Virus record (IMG/VR): IMGVR_UViG_3300021964_000041
Coordinates: 1-64,000 of that record
Reading direction: 5' to 3' (one strand)
Length of the DNA: 64,000 nucleotides
DNA from: a virus
The position numbers and the translations under genes were made by a program. Of this stretch, positions 32,268-47,163 are shown one piece after another (position 1 is the first letter of the stretch; every line of letters begins with the position of its first letter). The notes under the pieces are model-generated. The model ran no database searches, was not told the origin of the DNA, and worked only from the letters and a program-made list of their open reading frames with translations.

Positions 32268-33290
32268 ATGACACAATTATTTAAAAAGGCCGCTGTGTTT
32301 ACAGATATTCACTTTGGTCTTAAATCGAATTCAAAAATACACAATGACGATTGCGAACGTTTTGTAGATTGGTACATCGAAACAGCCAAAGCAAATGGCT
32401 GTGATGTGGGCCTATTTACAGGCGACTGGCATCATAATAGAAGTGCATTAAATTTAACCACAATGGACGCTAGTTTACGTTCACTGGAAAAACTAGGTGC
32501 GGCTTTTGATAAGTTTTACTTCTTCCCAGGCAATCATGATTTGTATTACAAAGACAAAAGAGAAATTCATTCTGTAGTATTTGGTAAACACGTACCAGGT
32601 GTTACTGTGGTTAATGAACCAATGATTATAGACAATGTTGGTTTAGTTCCATGGTTGGTTGGAGAAGAGTGGAAAAATGTTGTAAAAATGAAGTGCAAAT
32701 ATATGTTTGGTCACTTTGAACTTCCGCACTTTAAAATGAATGCTATGGTAGAAATGCCAGATACAGGTGAAGTTAAAGCCTCAGACTTTAAGAATCAAGA
32801 ACTAGTTTTTAGTGGTCATTTCCATAAACGTCAAACACAAAATAATATCCATTACATCGGCAACGCCTTTCCACACAATTATGCTGATGCTTGGGATGAC
32901 GAACGTGGTATGATGATACTTGAATGGGACGGTCAGCCAAAATATGTTGATTGGCCAGACTGTCCTAAGTATCGAACTGTAAAACTTTCACAGTTACTAG
33001 ATAATACAGAAAGCATTTTATCGCCTAATAATTTATATCTACGTGTTACACTTGATATTGATATTAGTTACGAAGAAGCAAATTTTATTAAAGAAAACTT
33101 TACTGCACAATATGATGTACGTGAAATTAGTTTGCTACCAAACACAGAAGAAAATGACGAAGCACTAACACTTGAACGTGGAGAAATTGAATTTGAAAGT
33201 GTAGATCAAATTGTTACTGATCAAATTACAAAAATACAAAGCGAGCAGTACAGACCAAATACACTTTTAGATATCTATAGGAATTTATAA
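32268..33290 (+). CDS. gp47: Recombination endonuclease subunit, Mre11/SbcD-like
   Basis: Metallophosphoesterase motifs DIHFG, GDWHH, GNHD, GHFE, SGHFH. Confidence 0.92.
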   Translation: MTQLFKKAAVFTDIHFGLKSNSKIHNDDCERFVDWYIETAKANGCDVGLFTGDWHHNRSALNLTTMDASLRSLEKLGAAFDKFYFFPGNHDLYYKDKREIHSVVFGKHVPGVTVVNEPMIIDNVGLVPWLVGEEWKNVVKMKCKYMFGHFELPHFKMNAMVEMPDTGEVKASDFKNQELVFSGHFHKRQTQNNIHYIGNAFPHNYADAWDDERGMMILEWDGQPKYVDWPDCPKYRTVKLSQLLDNTESILSPNNLYLRVTLDIDISYEEANFIKENFTAQYDVREISLLPNTEENDEALTLERGEIEFESVDQIVTDQITKIQSEQYRPNTLLDIYRNL

Positions 33291-35071
33291 TGTTTAAAAT
33301 TAAAACTTTAACAGTTAAAAACTTCATGAGTGTTGGAAACACAACACAAGCAGTTGATTTTTATAAAAACTTCTTGACCCTTGTGCTAGGTGAAAATATG
33401 GACCTAGGCGGTGATGATGCAGGGTCACGTAATGGTACAGGTAAGACTACTATTATTAATGCACTAAGTTATGCACTGTACGGTGAAGCACTTACAAAAA
33501 TTCGTAAAGAAAATCTAATTAACAAAACCAACGGCAAAGACATGTTGGTTACTGTTGAATTTGAAAAAGAAGGACGTTCATATCGTATTGAGCGTGGTAG
33601 AAGAAAAAACGTATTGAAATTTTATATCAACGATGTTGATTCGACTGCTGATGATATAGATGAATCACAAGGCGATTCACGTAAAACGCAGGAAGAAATA
33701 GAACGACTTTTGAACATGAGTCATGGTATGTTCAAACACTTGGTGGCACTTAATACCTATACAGAGCCTTTCCTATCTCTCAGTAATAACGCACAACGCG
33801 AAATTATTGAACAGTTGTTAGGTATCACCATTCTGTCTGAAAAAGCGGAGAACCTCAAGGAGCAACAGAAACAGGTCCGTGACAATATTACTGAAGAAGA
33901 TGCTCGCATTAGAGGAGTCGAAAGTGCAAACAAGGCTGTACAGGAATCCATTAATGCCCTTGAAATTAAAAGCAAGGCTTGGGACGCTTCACAGGCAGAA
34001 GAAATTTCACGACTGAGCAAAGCAATTATGCAACTGATTCAAGTCGATATTGATGCTGAAATTGATGCATTTACAAAGTTAAGTGATTGGGAAACTAAAA
34101 ATAACGAACTGTCAAACTTGCAAAAAGAAAAAGCAAGTTTAGAAGCATCACTACAACGTGCAGAAAGACAGCACAAAAAATATGAACAAGAATTAAAAGA
34201 CATCAAAAGCAAAAAATGTTTTACTTGCGGTCAAGAATTACATGACGAATCACATGCGGATTTGTTAAAAGAAAAAGAAAATGATCATAAAGAAAGCGAA
34301 ACATACATACAAGGCGTTGCACTGCAACTTGAAGAATGTTTAGGAAAAATAGATGCTATTGGTGATCTAGATAGCAAACCGCAAACATTTTATGAAACTG
34401 CGGAAGAAGCATACAATCATAAAAACAATCTTGCAACACTAGAAGATAGAAAAAAAGAAAAAGAAGAAGAAACTAATCCTTACACAGAACAAATGAATGA
34501 ATTGCAAGATACAGCAATTAAAGAGATTTCGTGGGATTATATGAACGATCTGCAGAACATGAAAGCACACATGGACTTTTTATATAAACTGCTTACAAGC
34601 AAAGATTCATTTATTCGTAAACGTATTATTGATCAAAACCTTGCTGTATTAAATAAGCGTCTAGCGTACTATTTAGAAAAGACAGGATTGCCACATCAAG
34701 TACGATTCCAGAACGATTTAACGGTAGAAATTACAGAACTAGGACGCGACTTAGACTTTGATAACCTCAGTAGAGGAGAACGAAATAGACTCATCTTAAG
34801 CATGAGTTGGTCGTTCCGTGATGTTTGGGAAAGTCTATATCAAAGCATTAATTTGCTGTTTATTGATGAACTTATTGATAGTGGTATGGATGCCGCTGGT
34901 GTAGAAAGTTCTATAGGAATATTGAAAAAAATGGCTCGTGAACGTAACAAAAACATCTATCTTATTTCACACAAAGATGAACTAAGTTCAAGGGTCAACA
35001 ACATATTAAAAGTAGTCAAAGAAAACGGCTTTACAAGTTATGCTACTGATACTGAGGTAGTAGATGTCTAA
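33290..35071 (+). CDS. gp46: Recombination ATPase subunit, Rad50/SbcC-like
   Basis: Walker A NGTGKTT, coiled coil with CFTC zinc hook, signature LSRGE, Walker B LLFIDE, ISHK. Confidence 0.93.
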   Translation: MFKIKTLTVKNFMSVGNTTQAVDFYKNFLTLVLGENMDLGGDDAGSRNGTGKTTIINALSYALYGEALTKIRKENLINKTNGKDMLVTVEFEKEGRSYRIERGRRKNVLKFYINDVDSTADDIDESQGDSRKTQEEIERLLNMSHGMFKHLVALNTYTEPFLSLSNNAQREIIEQLLGITILSEKAENLKEQQKQVRDNITEEDARIRGVESANKAVQESINALEIKSKAWDASQAEEISRLSKAIMQLIQVDIDAEIDAFTKLSDWETKNNELSNLQKEKASLEASLQRAERQHKKYEQELKDIKSKKCFTCGQELHDESHADLLKEKENDHKESETYIQGVALQLEECLGKIDAIGDLDSKPQTFYETAEEAYNHKNNLATLEDRKKEKEEETNPYTEQMNELQDTAIKEISWDYMNDLQNMKAHMDFLYKLLTSKDSFIRKRIIDQNLAVLNKRLAYYLEKTGLPHQVRFQNDLTVEITELGRDLDFDNLSRGERNRLILSMSWSFRDVWESLYQSINLLFIDELIDSGMDAAGVESSIGILKKMARERNKNIYLISHKDELSSRVNNILKVVKENGFTSYATDTEVVDV

Positions 35072-35294
35072 AGGCCCAACAACACATGAACTATTAATCC
35101 AAGCAATTATGGATTACTATAACATGAATGAACGTTGGGAAGCAAAAGGCTTTGATGAAAACGGTCGTAAAGTACGTTCTATACTAAGCGATATTAGAAG
35201 GCTATGCACACAAAGGCGATACGAAGTACAGGATAGGCGCAAGGATCTTAAGGCAAAAAAGAAGCAAAATCAGAATCAAGACACTGAAAATTAG
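35064..35294 (+). CDS. Small basic helical protein, possibly Hc1 (histone H1-like) family
   Basis: 76 aa. NERWEAKG...GRKVRSILSDIRRLCTQRRYEVQ resembles the KG.KAAG.RARK.L pattern; K/R-rich C-terminus. Confidence 0.5.
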   Translation: MSKGPTTHELLIQAIMDYYNMNERWEAKGFDENGRKVRSILSDIRRLCTQRRYEVQDRRKDLKAKKKQNQNQDTEN

Positions 35295-35301
35295 GCATCG
35301 G

Positions 35302-35307
35302 TAAGTA
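35302..35307 (+). promoter_or_regulatory. Variant late promoter TAAGTA-N5-ATG
   Basis: catcggTAAGTA-tcact-ATG(35313). Same N5 spacing as the TAAATA sites, same CATCGG prefix as the site at 39655-39666, no SD. Confidence 0.55.
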
Positions 35308-35312
35308 TCACT

Positions 35313-35744
35313 ATGGAGTGGACTTATCAGGGCAAAAAAGTACAAGAACTTCCCGCAGATTGCGAAGGATTTGTATACCTGATTACTAACACTACCAACA
35401 ATCGCAAGTACGTAGGCAAAAAACTCGCAAAATTCAAAACCACTAAGCCACCTCTCAAAGGCAAGAAAAACAAACGACGAGGCACAAAGGAATCAGATTG
35501 GAGAGACTATTGGGGATCTTCAGATCATCTAAATGCTGATGTTAAAAAATTAGGGCCAGAAAACTTCACAAGAGAAATTTTATACTATTGCAACAGCAGA
35601 GGCATAATGAGTTACCTTGAGGCTAGAGAACAATTTGAACGCCGTGTGTTAGAGACGGATGAGTATTACAATGGAATTATTAATGTTAGAGTTGGCAGTT
35701 CAAAAATTCTCAAAGAAGCACTAGAAAATCTAAAGGCAATATAA
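35313..35744 (+). CDS. Stand-alone GIY-YIG (Seg-like) endonuclease domain protein
   Basis: GFVYLITNTTNNRKYVGKK (GIY..YIG), YWGSS, FTREIL...YLEAREQF (catalytic-type Glu), YYNG (conserved Asn). 143 aa with no C-terminal DNA-binding domain. Confidence 0.85.
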   Translation: MEWTYQGKKVQELPADCEGFVYLITNTTNNRKYVGKKLAKFKTTKPPLKGKKNKRRGTKESDWRDYWGSSDHLNADVKKLGPENFTREILYYCNSRGIMSYLEAREQFERRVLETDEYYNGIINVRVGSSKILKEALENLKAI

Positions 35745-36182
35745 CAGCACATAAGGTTGGCGGGCCAGTTTGCAAATACCGCTGAGTAAAAGGTCCCCTG
35801 AGAAGGACACTCGTACACATTGATCGACCCCCCATGGGAGGAAGCCAACAAACAAATTGGGCTCACTGGTTAATGTAGATTGAATGCTGTCAGTCGAAAA
35901 CACATGTGTTTGAAAAAACTCCACGCAACGGAACGAGGCGGGAGGTAGCGTAGAAGACCGCGAAGCGGTTTGCGGTAGCAAAGCGATTTGTAAAGCAGTT
36001 TTTTACGTGATGTCGACGTAGGTAGGGGAAAGGTCAGAGCCCCACAAACAGGTGTATAAACAAAATACCTACTTCCAAGTCTTGGCTGTGACGAACTCAC
36101 ATGATGTTCAAGATTAGATGGAACCATAAACAGGTTCCGTCTGACTGAAACAATCTACATGATGCTAAATTGCTTCGCAATT
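35745..36182 (+). ncRNA. Candidate large structured non-coding RNA (~430 nt; further hairpins to 36250)
   Basis: Longest ORF-free gap in the window; ~46% GC by hand count, visibly above the AT-rich flanks. More than 10 helices, including the long-range ATGTAGATTG(35873-82)/CAATCTACAT(36151-60). G-U pairs favour the + strand. Confidence 0.75.
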
Positions 36183-36206
36183 ATCTTTCATATATAAAGG
36201 AATAAA

Positions 36207-36250
36207 TGTGTTCGAGCGATAGCGATAACACAGATGAACGTAGTTCATCT
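36207..36250. terminator. Tandem hairpins between convergent units (possible terminator or processing site)
   Basis: TGTGTT(36207-12)/AACACA(36227-32); AGATGAAC-GTA-GTTCATCT(36232-50). No clear U-tract. Confidence 0.4.
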
Positions 36251-36256
36251 ACTAAC

Positions 36257-36451
36257 TTAATAAATTGCTTTTCCTGTTTTTTTAGATAGTTCAGAATTCT
36301 CTTTGATTAATTCGAATATGTATTTGCGTTGATCCCATGTAAGGTTGTAAGCATCGTTAAGATTGATACCACCTCTCATGTACCATAATATTTCCATTAG
36401 ATTCTTTTCGATGGCTTCTGACTCGTCTTCTAGTTTTTTGACGATCTCCAT
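36257..36451 (-). CDS. Baseplate hub / tail assembly chaperone C-terminal module (gp51-like), probably expressed as a -1 frameshift extension of the upstream gene
   Basis: LWYMRGGINLNDAYNLTWDQRKYIFELIKEN; no SD before the ATG; its frame stays open upstream through the slippery site at 36499-36490. Confidence 0.7.
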   Translation of the reverse strand: MEIVKKLEDESEAIEKNLMEILWYMRGGINLNDAYNLTWDQRKYIFELIKENSELSKKTGKAIY

Positions 36452-36483
36452 TACTTGGTCAGAGTCCGTGCATTGGCTTACGG

Positions 36484-46610: not shown

Positions 46611-46716
46611 ATACATTGTCAGATATGTTCCATTCGAAGTAATGGACTTATGCAGTACTAAACCCACTGCGTACCGGCTAGAACCCGGATCGGACTTCTA
46701 AAAAAGGAGAAAACAA
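46608..46716 (+). promoter_or_regulatory. Late promoter TAAATA plus ~100-nt structured 5' leader
   Basis: TAAATA 46608-13; stems 46629-34/46641-46, 46649-56/46666-73, 46674-77/46685-88, 46679-83/46696-700; SD AAGGAG. Confidence 0.6.
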
Positions 46717-47163
46717 ATGGGTAGACCACTTAATAAAAGATACTTCGGCGAACCTACTGCGGGTGGAAATGAAATCAAAGTTGATTTTCACAACGGTACA
46801 AGTGTAGTTGAAGGACACATTGTAAGACAAAAAGGTAGCAAGAAGTTTGTAGTATCAGAAATTGGTGCTTCAGACACCGAATATACTTGCACATTAACAA
46901 CTGGTAAACTAATGTCAGCACTAGCGGCTGGTGAAATGGGTATCACGTTTAAAATGGACGATGCAGAAACTTACCAAGTTTCTAAAATTTCAGGTCGTAA
47001 AGCAACACTAGTTGCTCCAGATGCTACAGGTACTAACGCATATGACGGAAAGTCAGTGCCATGGAACTTTAACACATCTGTTGTAGACGGTGCGGCACAA
47101 GTTGAAGAGGCTGGTGACGACGATGTTGCTGGCGTTGATGACGACGATTTCGTTAACGCATAA
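46717..47163 (+). CDS. Virion structural protein (possible head decoration protein)
   Basis: 148 aa, MGRPLNKRYFG...IVRQKGSKKF; strong SD, own promoter and terminator, close to MCP. Confidence 0.5.
   Translation: MGRPLNKRYFGEPTAGGNEIKVDFHNGTSVVEGHIVRQKGSKKFVVSEIGASDTEYTCTLTTGKLMSALAAGEMGITFKMDDAETYQVSKISGRKATLVAPDATGTNAYDGKSVPWNFNTSVVDGAAQVEEAGDDDVAGVDDDDFVNA

What the first reader, a model, noticed from the sequence alone, without database searches (positions are those of the whole stretch)
35745..36256. Large, ornate, GC-enriched non-coding element (candidate novel large ncRNA) directly behind a GIY-YIG gene
Seen: the genome is gene-dense, yet this 512-nt gap has no credible ORF and is ~46% GC over 35745-36170 (hand count). 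Helices readable by eye: ATGTAGATTG(35873-82)/CAATCTACAT(36151-60), a perfect 10 bp closing a ~270-nt domain; TCAGTC(35890-95)/GACTGA(36143-48); AAAAAACT(35913-20)/AGTTTTTT(35997-36004); ACCGC-GAA-GCGGT(35957-69); GTAGGTA(36018-24)/TACCTAC(36066-72); GGGG(36025-28)/CCCC(36040-43); TGTGA-CGAAC-TCACA(36087-101); AGATGGAACC(36116-25)/GGTTCCGTCT(36133-42). The 5' domain has GTTGGC(35756-61)/GCCAAC(35844-49) crossing CCAGTTTG(35765-72)/CAAATTGG(35853-60), i.e. a pseudoknot, plus a GAGA GNRA-capped hairpin near 35793-808. Mismatches are G-U on the + strand. Inference: a multi-domain RNA in the size class of HEARO/ROOL/GOLLD/OLE RNAs. I do not recognise it as tRNA, tmRNA or an intron.
Basis: partly seen in the sequence, partly recalled or inferred. 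Interest (0 to 1): 0.92.

Follow-up and report, generated by a model that had tools for sequence, protein, structure and literature searches.

The report
Large twin-box phage RNA, function unknown
The gene-free stretch after a small nuclease gene of this uncultured aquatic T4-like phage encodes a real, intricately folded RNA of about 500 bases that hundreds of related phages share; no RNA catalogue holds this version, and its job is still unknown.

Summary
Window 35745-36256 is non-coding, G+C-enriched (0.45-0.46 against about 0.36) and folds better than shuffles on the + strand only. The same element follows the same GIY-YIG gene in most related viral contigs. On 22 close relatives a consensus fold has 136 pairs, 46 of them with compensatory double changes (16.7 expected).

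The two long-range helices said to close a 270-nt domain, one A/U helix and one pseudoknot arm are contradicted by covariation.

Rfam gives no match in the window. Sister RNAs with the same 3' domain carry Rfam's Polynucleobacter-1 motif (RF01718) as their 5' domain, so the family has a partial precedent.

The conserved 3' module holds two short boxes, 36096-36106 and 36154-36164. Their 7-nt cores are identical to each other in every relative, although the sequence differs between relatives. I found no complementary partner in cis.

A guide role for the nuclease is unlikely. Four complete phage genomes have the nuclease gene without the RNA. One relative has a PD-(D/E)XK nuclease there instead, and others have an extra gene in between.

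Earlier follow-ups of this scan reported the same family on other genomes.

The parts
35313..35744 (+). GIY-YIG nuclease gene, 143 aa, catalytic domain only; the upstream neighbour of the RNA
   Evidence: Pfam PF19835 SegE_GIY-YIG, E 3.7e-35. Homologue of P-SSM2 PSSM2_218, 42% identity, E 2e-23.
35733..35759 (+). Conserved leader (AAGGCAA...ATAAGG) that overlaps the stop codon of the GIY-YIG gene; likely 5' boundary of the RNA and 5' strand of a possible closing helix P1
   Evidence: An AGGCAA leader stands at this place in nearly all structural types of the family examined. P1 (35746-35759 with 36151-36166) is 90% paired but shows no covariation.
35760..35895 (+). 5' domain specific to this subtype: hairpins 35760-63/35779-82, 35793-96/35805-08, 35828-32/35837-41, 35844-51/35857-62 and 35878-83/35890-95, enclosed in part by helix 35817-26/35867-76
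   Evidence: Helices 2-8 have 1 to 5 pairs each with double changes. Coordinates. No match to RF01718 even at E<=10.
35919..36011 (+). Central arm (helices 35919-26/35938-44, 35945-55/36001-11, 35958-63/35970-75); its distal part is variable and shortened or deleted in some relatives
   Evidence: Helices 9 and 11 have 5 and 7 pairs with double changes. A deletion of about 50 nt is seen in L025, L010, L037 and L151.
36012..36075 (+). Highly conserved core helix GACGTAGGT/ACCTACTTC with an inner GGG/CCC hairpin
   Evidence: Helix 14 is 100% paired and nearly invariant.
36063..36192 (+). Twin-box 3' domain, the part shared by nearly all subtypes of the family (not recovered in three diverged relatives, L055, L067 and L045)
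   Evidence: Covariance model R1 scores 114.3 bits, E 5.5e-20, the only hit in the window. The same domain is found in 54 of 80 GIY-anchored loci.
36096..36106 (+). Box 1, CTCACATGATG (7-nt core ACATGAT at 36099-36105); it is displayed in the loop of a hairpin whose closing stem (GAAC/GTTC here) differs between relatives
36116..36142 (+). Hairpin Hb between the two boxes
   Evidence: 100% paired in 22 sequences. Fully different but still complementary sequences in other subtypes.
36154..36164 (+). Box 2, TCTACATGATG (7-nt core ACATGAT at 36157-36163); its core is identical to that of box 1 in every relative
36168..36182 (+). Hairpin with a UUCG loop (AATTGC-TTC-GCAATT)
   Evidence: Helix 21 has 3 pairs with double changes. 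The stem covaries across subtypes.
36208..36250 (+). Two terminal hairpins (36208-12/36227-31 with an inner GC-GATA-GC, and 36232-39/36243-50) at the point where + and - strand transcription converge; probable 3' end or terminator region
   Evidence: Helices 22-24 have 3, 2 and 6 pairs with double changes. No T-run terminator was called by the scan.

Best explanation
This is a real non-coding RNA gene of about 500 nt, running from about 35733 to about 36250 on the + strand. It belongs to a large family carried by uncultured aquatic T4-like phages, which I call twin-box RNA here.

Shown: the RNA is conserved, structured and non-coding. It always sits at the end of the rightward gp47-gp46-(small ORF)-nuclease block, facing the baseplate-hub genes. 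It has a subtype-specific 5' domain and a 3' module shared by nearly all subtypes. That module holds two boxes whose 7-nt cores are kept identical to each other while the sequence differs between phages. Box 1 lies in a hairpin loop, and neither box has a complement within the RNA.

Inferred: in this phage the RNA is made by read-through from the nuclease gene, and some relatives have a promoter of their own. It ends in stable hairpins and accumulates as a stable RNA that acts in trans. The twin boxes are two equivalent single-stranded recognition sites that hold two copies of one partner. The partner could be a complementary RNA or DNA sequence, or the two halves of a dimeric protein. The subtype-specific 5' domain serves as scaffold or adaptor.

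The nuclease gene is most likely only a syntenic neighbour. How confident I am differs by claim: about 0.95 that it is a structured non-coding RNA, and about 0.35 for the bivalent trans-recognition mechanism.
For: Conservation: blastn and nhmmer find the element right after the GIY-YIG stop in most of 80 related loci.

Structure: 136 consensus pairs are 94.9% paired. 46 pairs have double changes, against 16.7 +/- 2.5 in shuffles (0 of 500 reach 46) and 7-20 in slid controls. The + strand fold has z = -3.86, the - strand -1.94.

Non-coding.

Fixed synteny gp46 - (orf76) - GIY - RNA - (0-4 kb) - orf64 - hub across all subtypes.

Own promoter in diverged relatives: TTGACA-17-TATATT with TG, 11 of 12 matches, at the GIY stop of L055.

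Twin boxes: the 7-nt cores are identical in the two boxes in essentially all of 26 distinct box pairs from loci that were not selected on the boxes (24 read clean; 2 are gapped in box 2). At least 8 core variants occur, plus 3 in diverged relatives.

Box 1 sits in a hairpin loop whose stem differs between relatives yet stays complementary.

No cis complement of the core in nearly all of about 105 RNAs examined, and none at a consistent place in the surrounding contigs.
Against: - No expression data.
- No promoter of its own was found in the window.
- Predicted unpaired probability of the boxes is only slightly above the RNA average: 0.55 and 0.49 against 0.42.
- Box 2 could pair with the 5' leader in helix P1, which is 90% paired but has no covariation.
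- No partner was found: the complement of the core is not enriched in the window.
- Identity of the two boxes could have another cause, such as a DNA-level process.
Confidence: 0.5

Rival explanations
1. The RNA is a cofactor or guide of the neighbouring nuclease, an RNA-partnered nuclease system in the manner of omega-RNA with TnpB or IscB. The variable twin boxes or the variable 3' tail would specify the target.
For: The RNA starts on the stop codon of the nuclease gene. In L151 the GIY-YIG gene is replaced at the same place by an unrelated PD-(D/E)XK nuclease, PF24608, E 1.6e-22, so a nuclease followed by the RNA is kept. The protein is a bare catalytic domain with no DNA-binding domain. 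The box cores differ between phages.
Against: Complete genomes of Melnitz, S-RSM4, P-SSM2 and S-SRM01 have the GIY-YIG homologue but no twin-box domain. In L117, L103, L188, L197 and L092 one or more ORFs lie between the nuclease gene and the RNA. Gene order is conserved throughout the clade, so adjacency alone says little. Only about a dozen box variants occur among hundreds of phages, and both boxes are always the same, unlike a guide. No family of RNA-guided nucleases matches (Pfam, NCBIfam).
Confidence: 0.08
2. It is a cis-acting 3' untranslated structure. It would be a long terminator, insulator and exonuclease barrier at the point where two transcription units converge, stabilising the upstream messenger RNA, with no trans function.
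For: The position at the convergence point, the absence of a promoter of its own in the window, and three stable hairpins at the 3' end.
Against: About 450 nt of multi-domain structure, with long invariant single-stranded stretches and the twin boxes, is far more than a terminator needs. Diverged relatives have their own strong promoter upstream of the element. No T-run terminator was found.
Confidence: 0.15
3. It is an RNA-only homo-oligomeric assembly like ROOL or GOLLD, which are large phage-borne RNAs that form cages. Conserved single-stranded segments would serve as contacts between molecules.
For: Size, ornate fold, phage origin and unknown function match that class. Cryo-EM showed ROOL, GOLLD and OLE to be homo-oligomers (PMC12286853, listed).
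Against: No Rfam match to any of these families. The box cores are not self-complementary (for example AGATAAT, ACATAAA), so they cannot kiss each other.
Confidence: 0.1
4. It is a DNA-level element. The twin boxes would be crossover or cleavage cores of a recombination or replication signal. Such cores must be identical to each other but may differ between genomes. The hairpins would act in single-stranded DNA.
For: Strict identity of two direct 7-nt cores 55-62 nt apart in most relatives (up to about 70 where there is an insertion), whatever their sequence, is what partner sites of a recombinase would show. Box 1 is flanked by inverted repeats.
Against: Strand asymmetry: G-U pairs occur on the + strand only, and only the + strand folds well. 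Covariation extends over 46 pairs throughout 500 nt, far beyond any site of this kind. The arms around box 1 and box 2 differ from each other, and the arms around box 1 vary like an RNA stem. No recombinase gene is next to it.
Confidence: 0.05
5. It is a diverged member of a known catalytic or housekeeping RNA: a group I intron carrying the GIY-YIG gene, a two-piece tmRNA as in phage Melnitz, or RNase P RNA.
For: GIY-YIG genes often sit in phage group I introns (general knowledge). Related phages encode a permuted tmRNA (PMC9004378).
Against: No Rfam hit at E<=10 to any intron, tmRNA or RNase P model. ARAGORN finds no tmRNA. No + strand ORF downstream could serve as a second exon. In Melnitz the tmRNA is at gene 86, far from the GIY-YIG gene 43.
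Confidence: 0.03

Closest known systems
Polynucleobacter-1 RNA motif (Rfam RF01718; Weinberg et al. 2010, PMC2864571)
   Same: Sister RNAs of this family score 59-108 bits against RF01718 (cut-off 37) right after the homologous GIY-YIG gene. They continue into the same twin-box 3' domain as the window's RNA. The 2010 supplement already places the motif downstream of genes like PSSM2_218, which is a homologue of the gene here. The leader (AGGCAA...ATAAG) and a first hairpin whose loop starts with GGC look alike (by eye).
   Different: The window's 5' domain gives no match to RF01718, even at E<=10 on 191 nt. RF01718 is a 141-nt motif listed as a possible cis-regulator or sRNA. It does not include the 3' twin-box domain, which is the shared core of the family. 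The whole RNA is three to four times longer than the motif.
GOLLD, ROOL, OLE and HEARO: large ornate bacterial and phage RNAs
   Same: Size class (about 400-600 nt or more), many covarying helices, carried by phages, found by comparative genomics, function unknown or only recently learned.
   Different: No sequence or structure match to any of their Rfam models. Not next to tRNA genes, nor to IscB or HNH genes. The twin-box feature has no counterpart that I know of in those RNAs (my own knowledge).
Omega-RNA of TnpB (IS200/IS605), an RNA that begins within the 3' end of the nuclease gene
   Same: The RNA leader overlaps the last codons of a nuclease gene and the RNA extends downstream.
   Different: The nuclease is a 143-aa GIY-YIG domain, not a RuvC-type protein. 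There are no transposon ends. The nuclease occurs without the RNA in complete phage genomes. No guide-like hypervariable segment was shown.

Membership tests
Polynucleobacter-1 (RF01718) | Score at or above the Rfam gathering cut-off of 37 bits against the covariance model | tested here: not met
   No match in the window at gathering score, nor at E<=10 on 1.3 kb or on 191 nt. 14 sister loci score 59-108 bits.
Polynucleobacter-1 (RF01718) | Position downstream of a GOS11034 / PSSM2_218-like gene (Weinberg 2010 supplement) | tested here: met
   The window's GIY-YIG protein against PSSM2_218: 42% identity, E 2e-23. Quotation.
Twin-box RNA family as defined here (model R1) | 3' domain with box 1 hairpin, hairpin Hb, box 2 and the UUCG-loop hairpin, with identical 7-nt box cores | tested here: met
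   R1 scores 114.3 bits, E 5.5e-20, at 36063-36192. Both cores read ACATGAT. The window is one of the seed sequences of R1, so the score is partly circular. nhmmer from the other sequences also links the subtypes.
GOLLD / ROOL / OLE / HEARO / raiA | Match to the family's covariance model | tested here: not met
   No match at E<=10.
Group I intron with a homing endonuclease gene | Match to the intron model, and flanking exons that join into one gene | tested here: not met
   No match. No + strand ORF follows the element; the next genes are on the - strand.
tmRNA (one-piece or permuted) | tRNA-like domain and tag reading frame, as detected by ARAGORN or the Rfam tmRNA models | tested here: not met
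   ARAGORN finds 0 genes in 64 kb. No Rfam match.
RNA-guided nuclease systems (OMEGA, CRISPR-type) | A nuclease of a known RNA-guided family, and obligate co-occurrence of protein and RNA | tested here: not met
   The protein is PF19835 GIY-YIG only. The protein occurs without the RNA in four complete genomes. The RNA is separated from the nuclease gene, or follows another nuclease, in six loci.

The most novel reading that the evidence does not exclude
The RNA is a bivalent guide or bridge. Its two identical 7-nt boxes would base-pair with two copies of one sequence, holding them together or presenting them to the adjacent small nuclease (GIY-YIG, or PD-(D/E)XK in a sister phage). That would be a new kind of RNA-directed nuclease or synapsis system in phages, in which a large RNA supplies the target recognition that the bare catalytic domain lacks.
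Probability: 0.07. Interest if true: 0.95.

Novelty: new variant of a known kind. Interest (0 to 1): 0.72.

Why it matters
Large, highly structured RNAs of unknown function are rare. Each earlier class (RNase P, group I and II introns, tmRNA, HEARO/omega-RNA, ROOL/GOLLD) turned out to do something unusual.

It appears confined to phages and is well supported by covariation.

It extends a 141-nt Rfam motif of 2010 into an RNA of about 500 nt with swappable 5' domains.

The twin boxes change in parallel rather than in a complementary way. This is an unusual signature that points to a partner still to be found. It gives a concrete handle for experiments: mutate one box, both boxes, or look for the complement.

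Tried and rejected
- Rfam at gathering score and at E<=10, on the window and on nine sister loci: nothing except RF01718 in sister RNAs and a chance snoRNA-like hit.
- ARAGORN: no tRNA or tmRNA.
- blastn against 50,697 phage records: no match, so no cultured phage holds a close copy.
- Melnitz tmRNA idea: rejected. The Melnitz tmRNA is elsewhere in that genome, and Melnitz has no twin-box domain.
- T4 endonuclease II (DenA) equivalence of the GIY-YIG protein: no support from a sequence search of solved structures.
- Partner of the boxes: an exact reverse complement in the contigs, a G-U-tolerant complement within the RNA, mutual information within one subtype (only phylogenetic noise), and enrichment of the core or its complement in the window. 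None found.
- Reading the complement of the boxes as a tRNA anticodon loop: rejected by hand, because position 37 would be a pyrimidine in several variants.
- Short ORF starting at the ATG of box 2: rejected, because the following hairpin covaries as RNA while the peptide is not conserved.
- CRISPR-like repeat-spacer-repeat reading of the two 26-29-nt units: rejected, because the 'spacer' is a conserved, covarying hairpin.
- Twin-box pattern in 185,579 bacterial and archaeal genomes: 6 hits, of which only one is real, and that one is a phage-like contig in a metagenome bin.
- Q-INS-i structural alignment: not installed.
- Supplement of the IMG/VR structured-RNA survey (PMC10690425): not held, so I could not see whether fragments of this RNA are among its motifs.

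Full report
**Setting.** The window is part of a 79-kb viral record rated 23% complete. It carries T4-type genes:
- an Mre11-like gene at 32268-33290 and a Rad50/SbcC-like gene (gp46) at 33290-35071;
- a 76-aa ORF;
- a 143-aa GIY-YIG gene at 35313-35744 (PF19835, E 3.7e-35);
- on the opposite strand, a 64-aa ORF and a baseplate-hub gene.

The finding concerns the 512 nt between the GIY-YIG stop codon and the first - strand gene.

- The gap has no + strand ORF of 30 aa or more.
- Its two - strand ORFs are interrupted by stops or frameshifts in nearly all of 21 close relatives: the 85-aa one in all 21, the other in 19.
- G+C is 0.45-0.46 against about 0.36 around it.
- The + strand folds at -149.4 kcal/mol, z = -3.86 with 0 of 100 shuffles as good. 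The - strand gives z = -1.94.
The one exception is the 35793-808 hairpin, which has an 8-nt loop rather than a GNRA tetraloop.

**Relatives.**
- blastn and a profile HMM find the non-coding element immediately after the GIY-YIG stop in most of these loci.
- A scan for 17 nt around box 2 gave 117 or more stretches. After setting aside about twenty chance matches in coding DNA, these are the same element.
- No cultured phage in 50,697 records has a similar sequence.
- The nearest isolate by the nuclease protein is Methylophilales phage Melnitz, at 79%.
- Gene order is the same everywhere: gp46, often the small ORF, the GIY-YIG gene, the RNA, 0 to about 4 kb of variable DNA, then orf64 and the hub gene on the other strand. 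The RNA is therefore a vertically inherited, syntenic gene of this clade, not a roaming cassette.

**Structure.**
- I aligned 22 sequences of the window's subtype (A2), computed an RNAalifold consensus and counted pairs.
- The consensus has 136 pairs in 24 helices, and 94.9% of cells are paired.
- 46 pairs have changes on both sides, against 16.7 +/- 2.5 in 500 shuffles (none reaches 46) and 7-20 when the partners are slid by 1-3 columns.
- G-U pairs on the + strand are frequent.
- The two long-range helices (35873-82 with 36151-60, and 35890-95 with 36143-48) fail. Many sequences have mismatches there, while a local hairpin GATTGA/TCAGTC (35878-83 with 35890-95) covaries at 5 of 6 pairs.
- AAAAAACT/AGTTTTTT and the pseudoknot arm GTTGGC/GCCAAC also fail.
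- The other pseudoknot arm (35765-72 with 35853-60) is nearly invariant and stays open.
- A possible closing helix between the 5' leader and box 2 is 90% paired but shows no covariation.

**The family and its partial precedent.**
- The RNAs fall into several types. They share the 3' domain but have different 5' domains.
- Rfam finds nothing in the window.
- In one type, the 5' domain matches Polynucleobacter-1 (RF01718) at 59-108 bits in 14 loci.
- The 2010 paper describes that motif as a 141-nt candidate found downstream of genes resembling PSSM2_218 of cyanophage P-SSM2. It adds that no sequenced phage carried it.
- PSSM2_218 is a homologue of the GIY-YIG gene here.
- So the family was glimpsed in 2010 through one of its 5' domains. 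The window's 5' domain and the shared 3' domain are not in Rfam.
- A covariance model of the 3' domain (R1) hits the window once (36063-36192, 114 bits) and 54 of the 80 GIY-anchored loci.
- R1 finds nothing in the complete genomes of Melnitz, S-RSM4, P-SSM2 and S-SRM01, all of which have the GIY-YIG homologue.
- A strict twin-box pattern found only one true copy in 185,579 prokaryote genomes, on a phage-like contig of a metagenome bin.

**The twin boxes.**
- The 3' domain contains two similar units of 26-29 nt. They end in CTC-ACATGAT-G (36096-36106) and TCT-ACATGAT-G (36154-36164), with a covarying hairpin between them.
- Across the family the 7-nt core takes at least eight forms: ACATGAT, ACATGAA, ACATAAA, AGATAAT, AGATGAT, GCATGAT, GAATAAT and ATATGAT. 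Three more occur in diverged relatives: TGTCAAG, GGTGAAG and TGCCAAG.
- In essentially every one of 26 distinct box pairs, taken from loci that were not chosen on the boxes, the two cores are identical to each other; 24 pairs read clean and 2 are gapped in box 2.
- The boxes therefore change in the same direction, not in a complementary way.
- Box 1 sits in the loop of a hairpin. Its stem differs between relatives but stays complementary: GAAC/GTTC, GATAAC/GTTATC, CTAC/GTAG, AGTC/GGCT.
- I found no complement of the core within the RNA, even allowing G-U pairs. There was none at a consistent place in the contigs, and the core is not enriched in the window.
- The simplest reading is two equivalent exposed sites for one partner that evolves together with them.
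- Thermodynamic predictions give only weak support for exposure.

**Relation to the nuclease.** The RNA leader (AAGGCAATATAA...) overlaps the last codons of the GIY-YIG gene. Three results argue against an obligate pair:
- The nuclease exists without the RNA in four complete genomes.
- In five loci another ORF separates the two.
- In L151 an unrelated PD-(D/E)XK nuclease takes the place of the GIY-YIG gene.

The last point can be read either way. It could mean that a nuclease of some kind is kept next to the RNA, or that this is a hot spot for endonuclease genes. I therefore keep the guide or cofactor idea at about 0.08.

**Transcription.** No promoter of its own was found in the window, so read-through from the nuclease gene is likely here. 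Diverged relatives have a near-consensus sigma-70-type promoter exactly at the GIY stop, which fits an RNA gene in its own right. I could not obtain expression data.

**Verdict.** This is a genuine, large, covariation-supported phage RNA. About half of the proposed helices are wrong, and the novelty is qualified by RF01718. The function is unknown. My best guess is a stable trans-acting RNA with a bivalent recognition module. Earlier follow-ups of this scan reached the same family on other genomes. I re-derived their main points here independently.

Noticed in passing
window 35292-35307: The motif TAGGCA-NN-GGTAAGTA lies between the stop of the 76-aa ORF and the GIY-YIG start. GGTAAGTA occurs only once in the 64-kb window. 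GTAAGTA is kept 6-12 nt before the GIY-YIG start in nearly all related loci of several RNA subtypes. It may be a translational operator, a ribosome-binding signal or a processing signal.
   Followed up: partly
window 46629-46719 (+): A freshwater-2 RNA (RF02980) matches at 73 bits against a cut-off of 49.9. It is the only Rfam family found in the window.
   Followed up: no
L055 3414-3442 (also L067, L045): Diverged relatives have a near-consensus promoter, TTGACA-17-TATATT with an upstream TG, exactly at the GIY-YIG stop, followed by about 130 nt of A+T-rich leader before the RNA.
   Followed up: partly
L151 9469-9978 (-): In this relative a 169-aa PD-(D/E)XK endonuclease (PF24608) stands where the GIY-YIG gene is elsewhere, directly before the RNA.
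   Followed up: partly
window 36257-36483 and the same place in the loci: The distance between the RNA and the orf64/hub genes ranges from about 150 nt to more than 4 kb among relatives. This is a variable insertion region right after the RNA.
   Followed up: no
window 35313-35744; NC_006883 PSSM2_218; NC_013085 SRSM4_050: This GIY-YIG family (phrog_447) is named 'NAD synthetase' in many RefSeq phage records. That name appears to be an annotation error that has been copied from record to record.
   Followed up: partly
L208 (CAZCDW010000003.1): A 56.7-kb contig binned as 'uncultured Bifidobacterium sp.' carries a complete twin-box RNA with a Polynucleobacter-1 5' domain. It is probably a phage contig placed in the wrong bin.
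   Followed up: no
window 36183-36207: The A+T-rich spacer between the UUCG-loop hairpin and the terminal hairpins varies in sequence and length even among close relatives, while everything around it is conserved.
   Followed up: no
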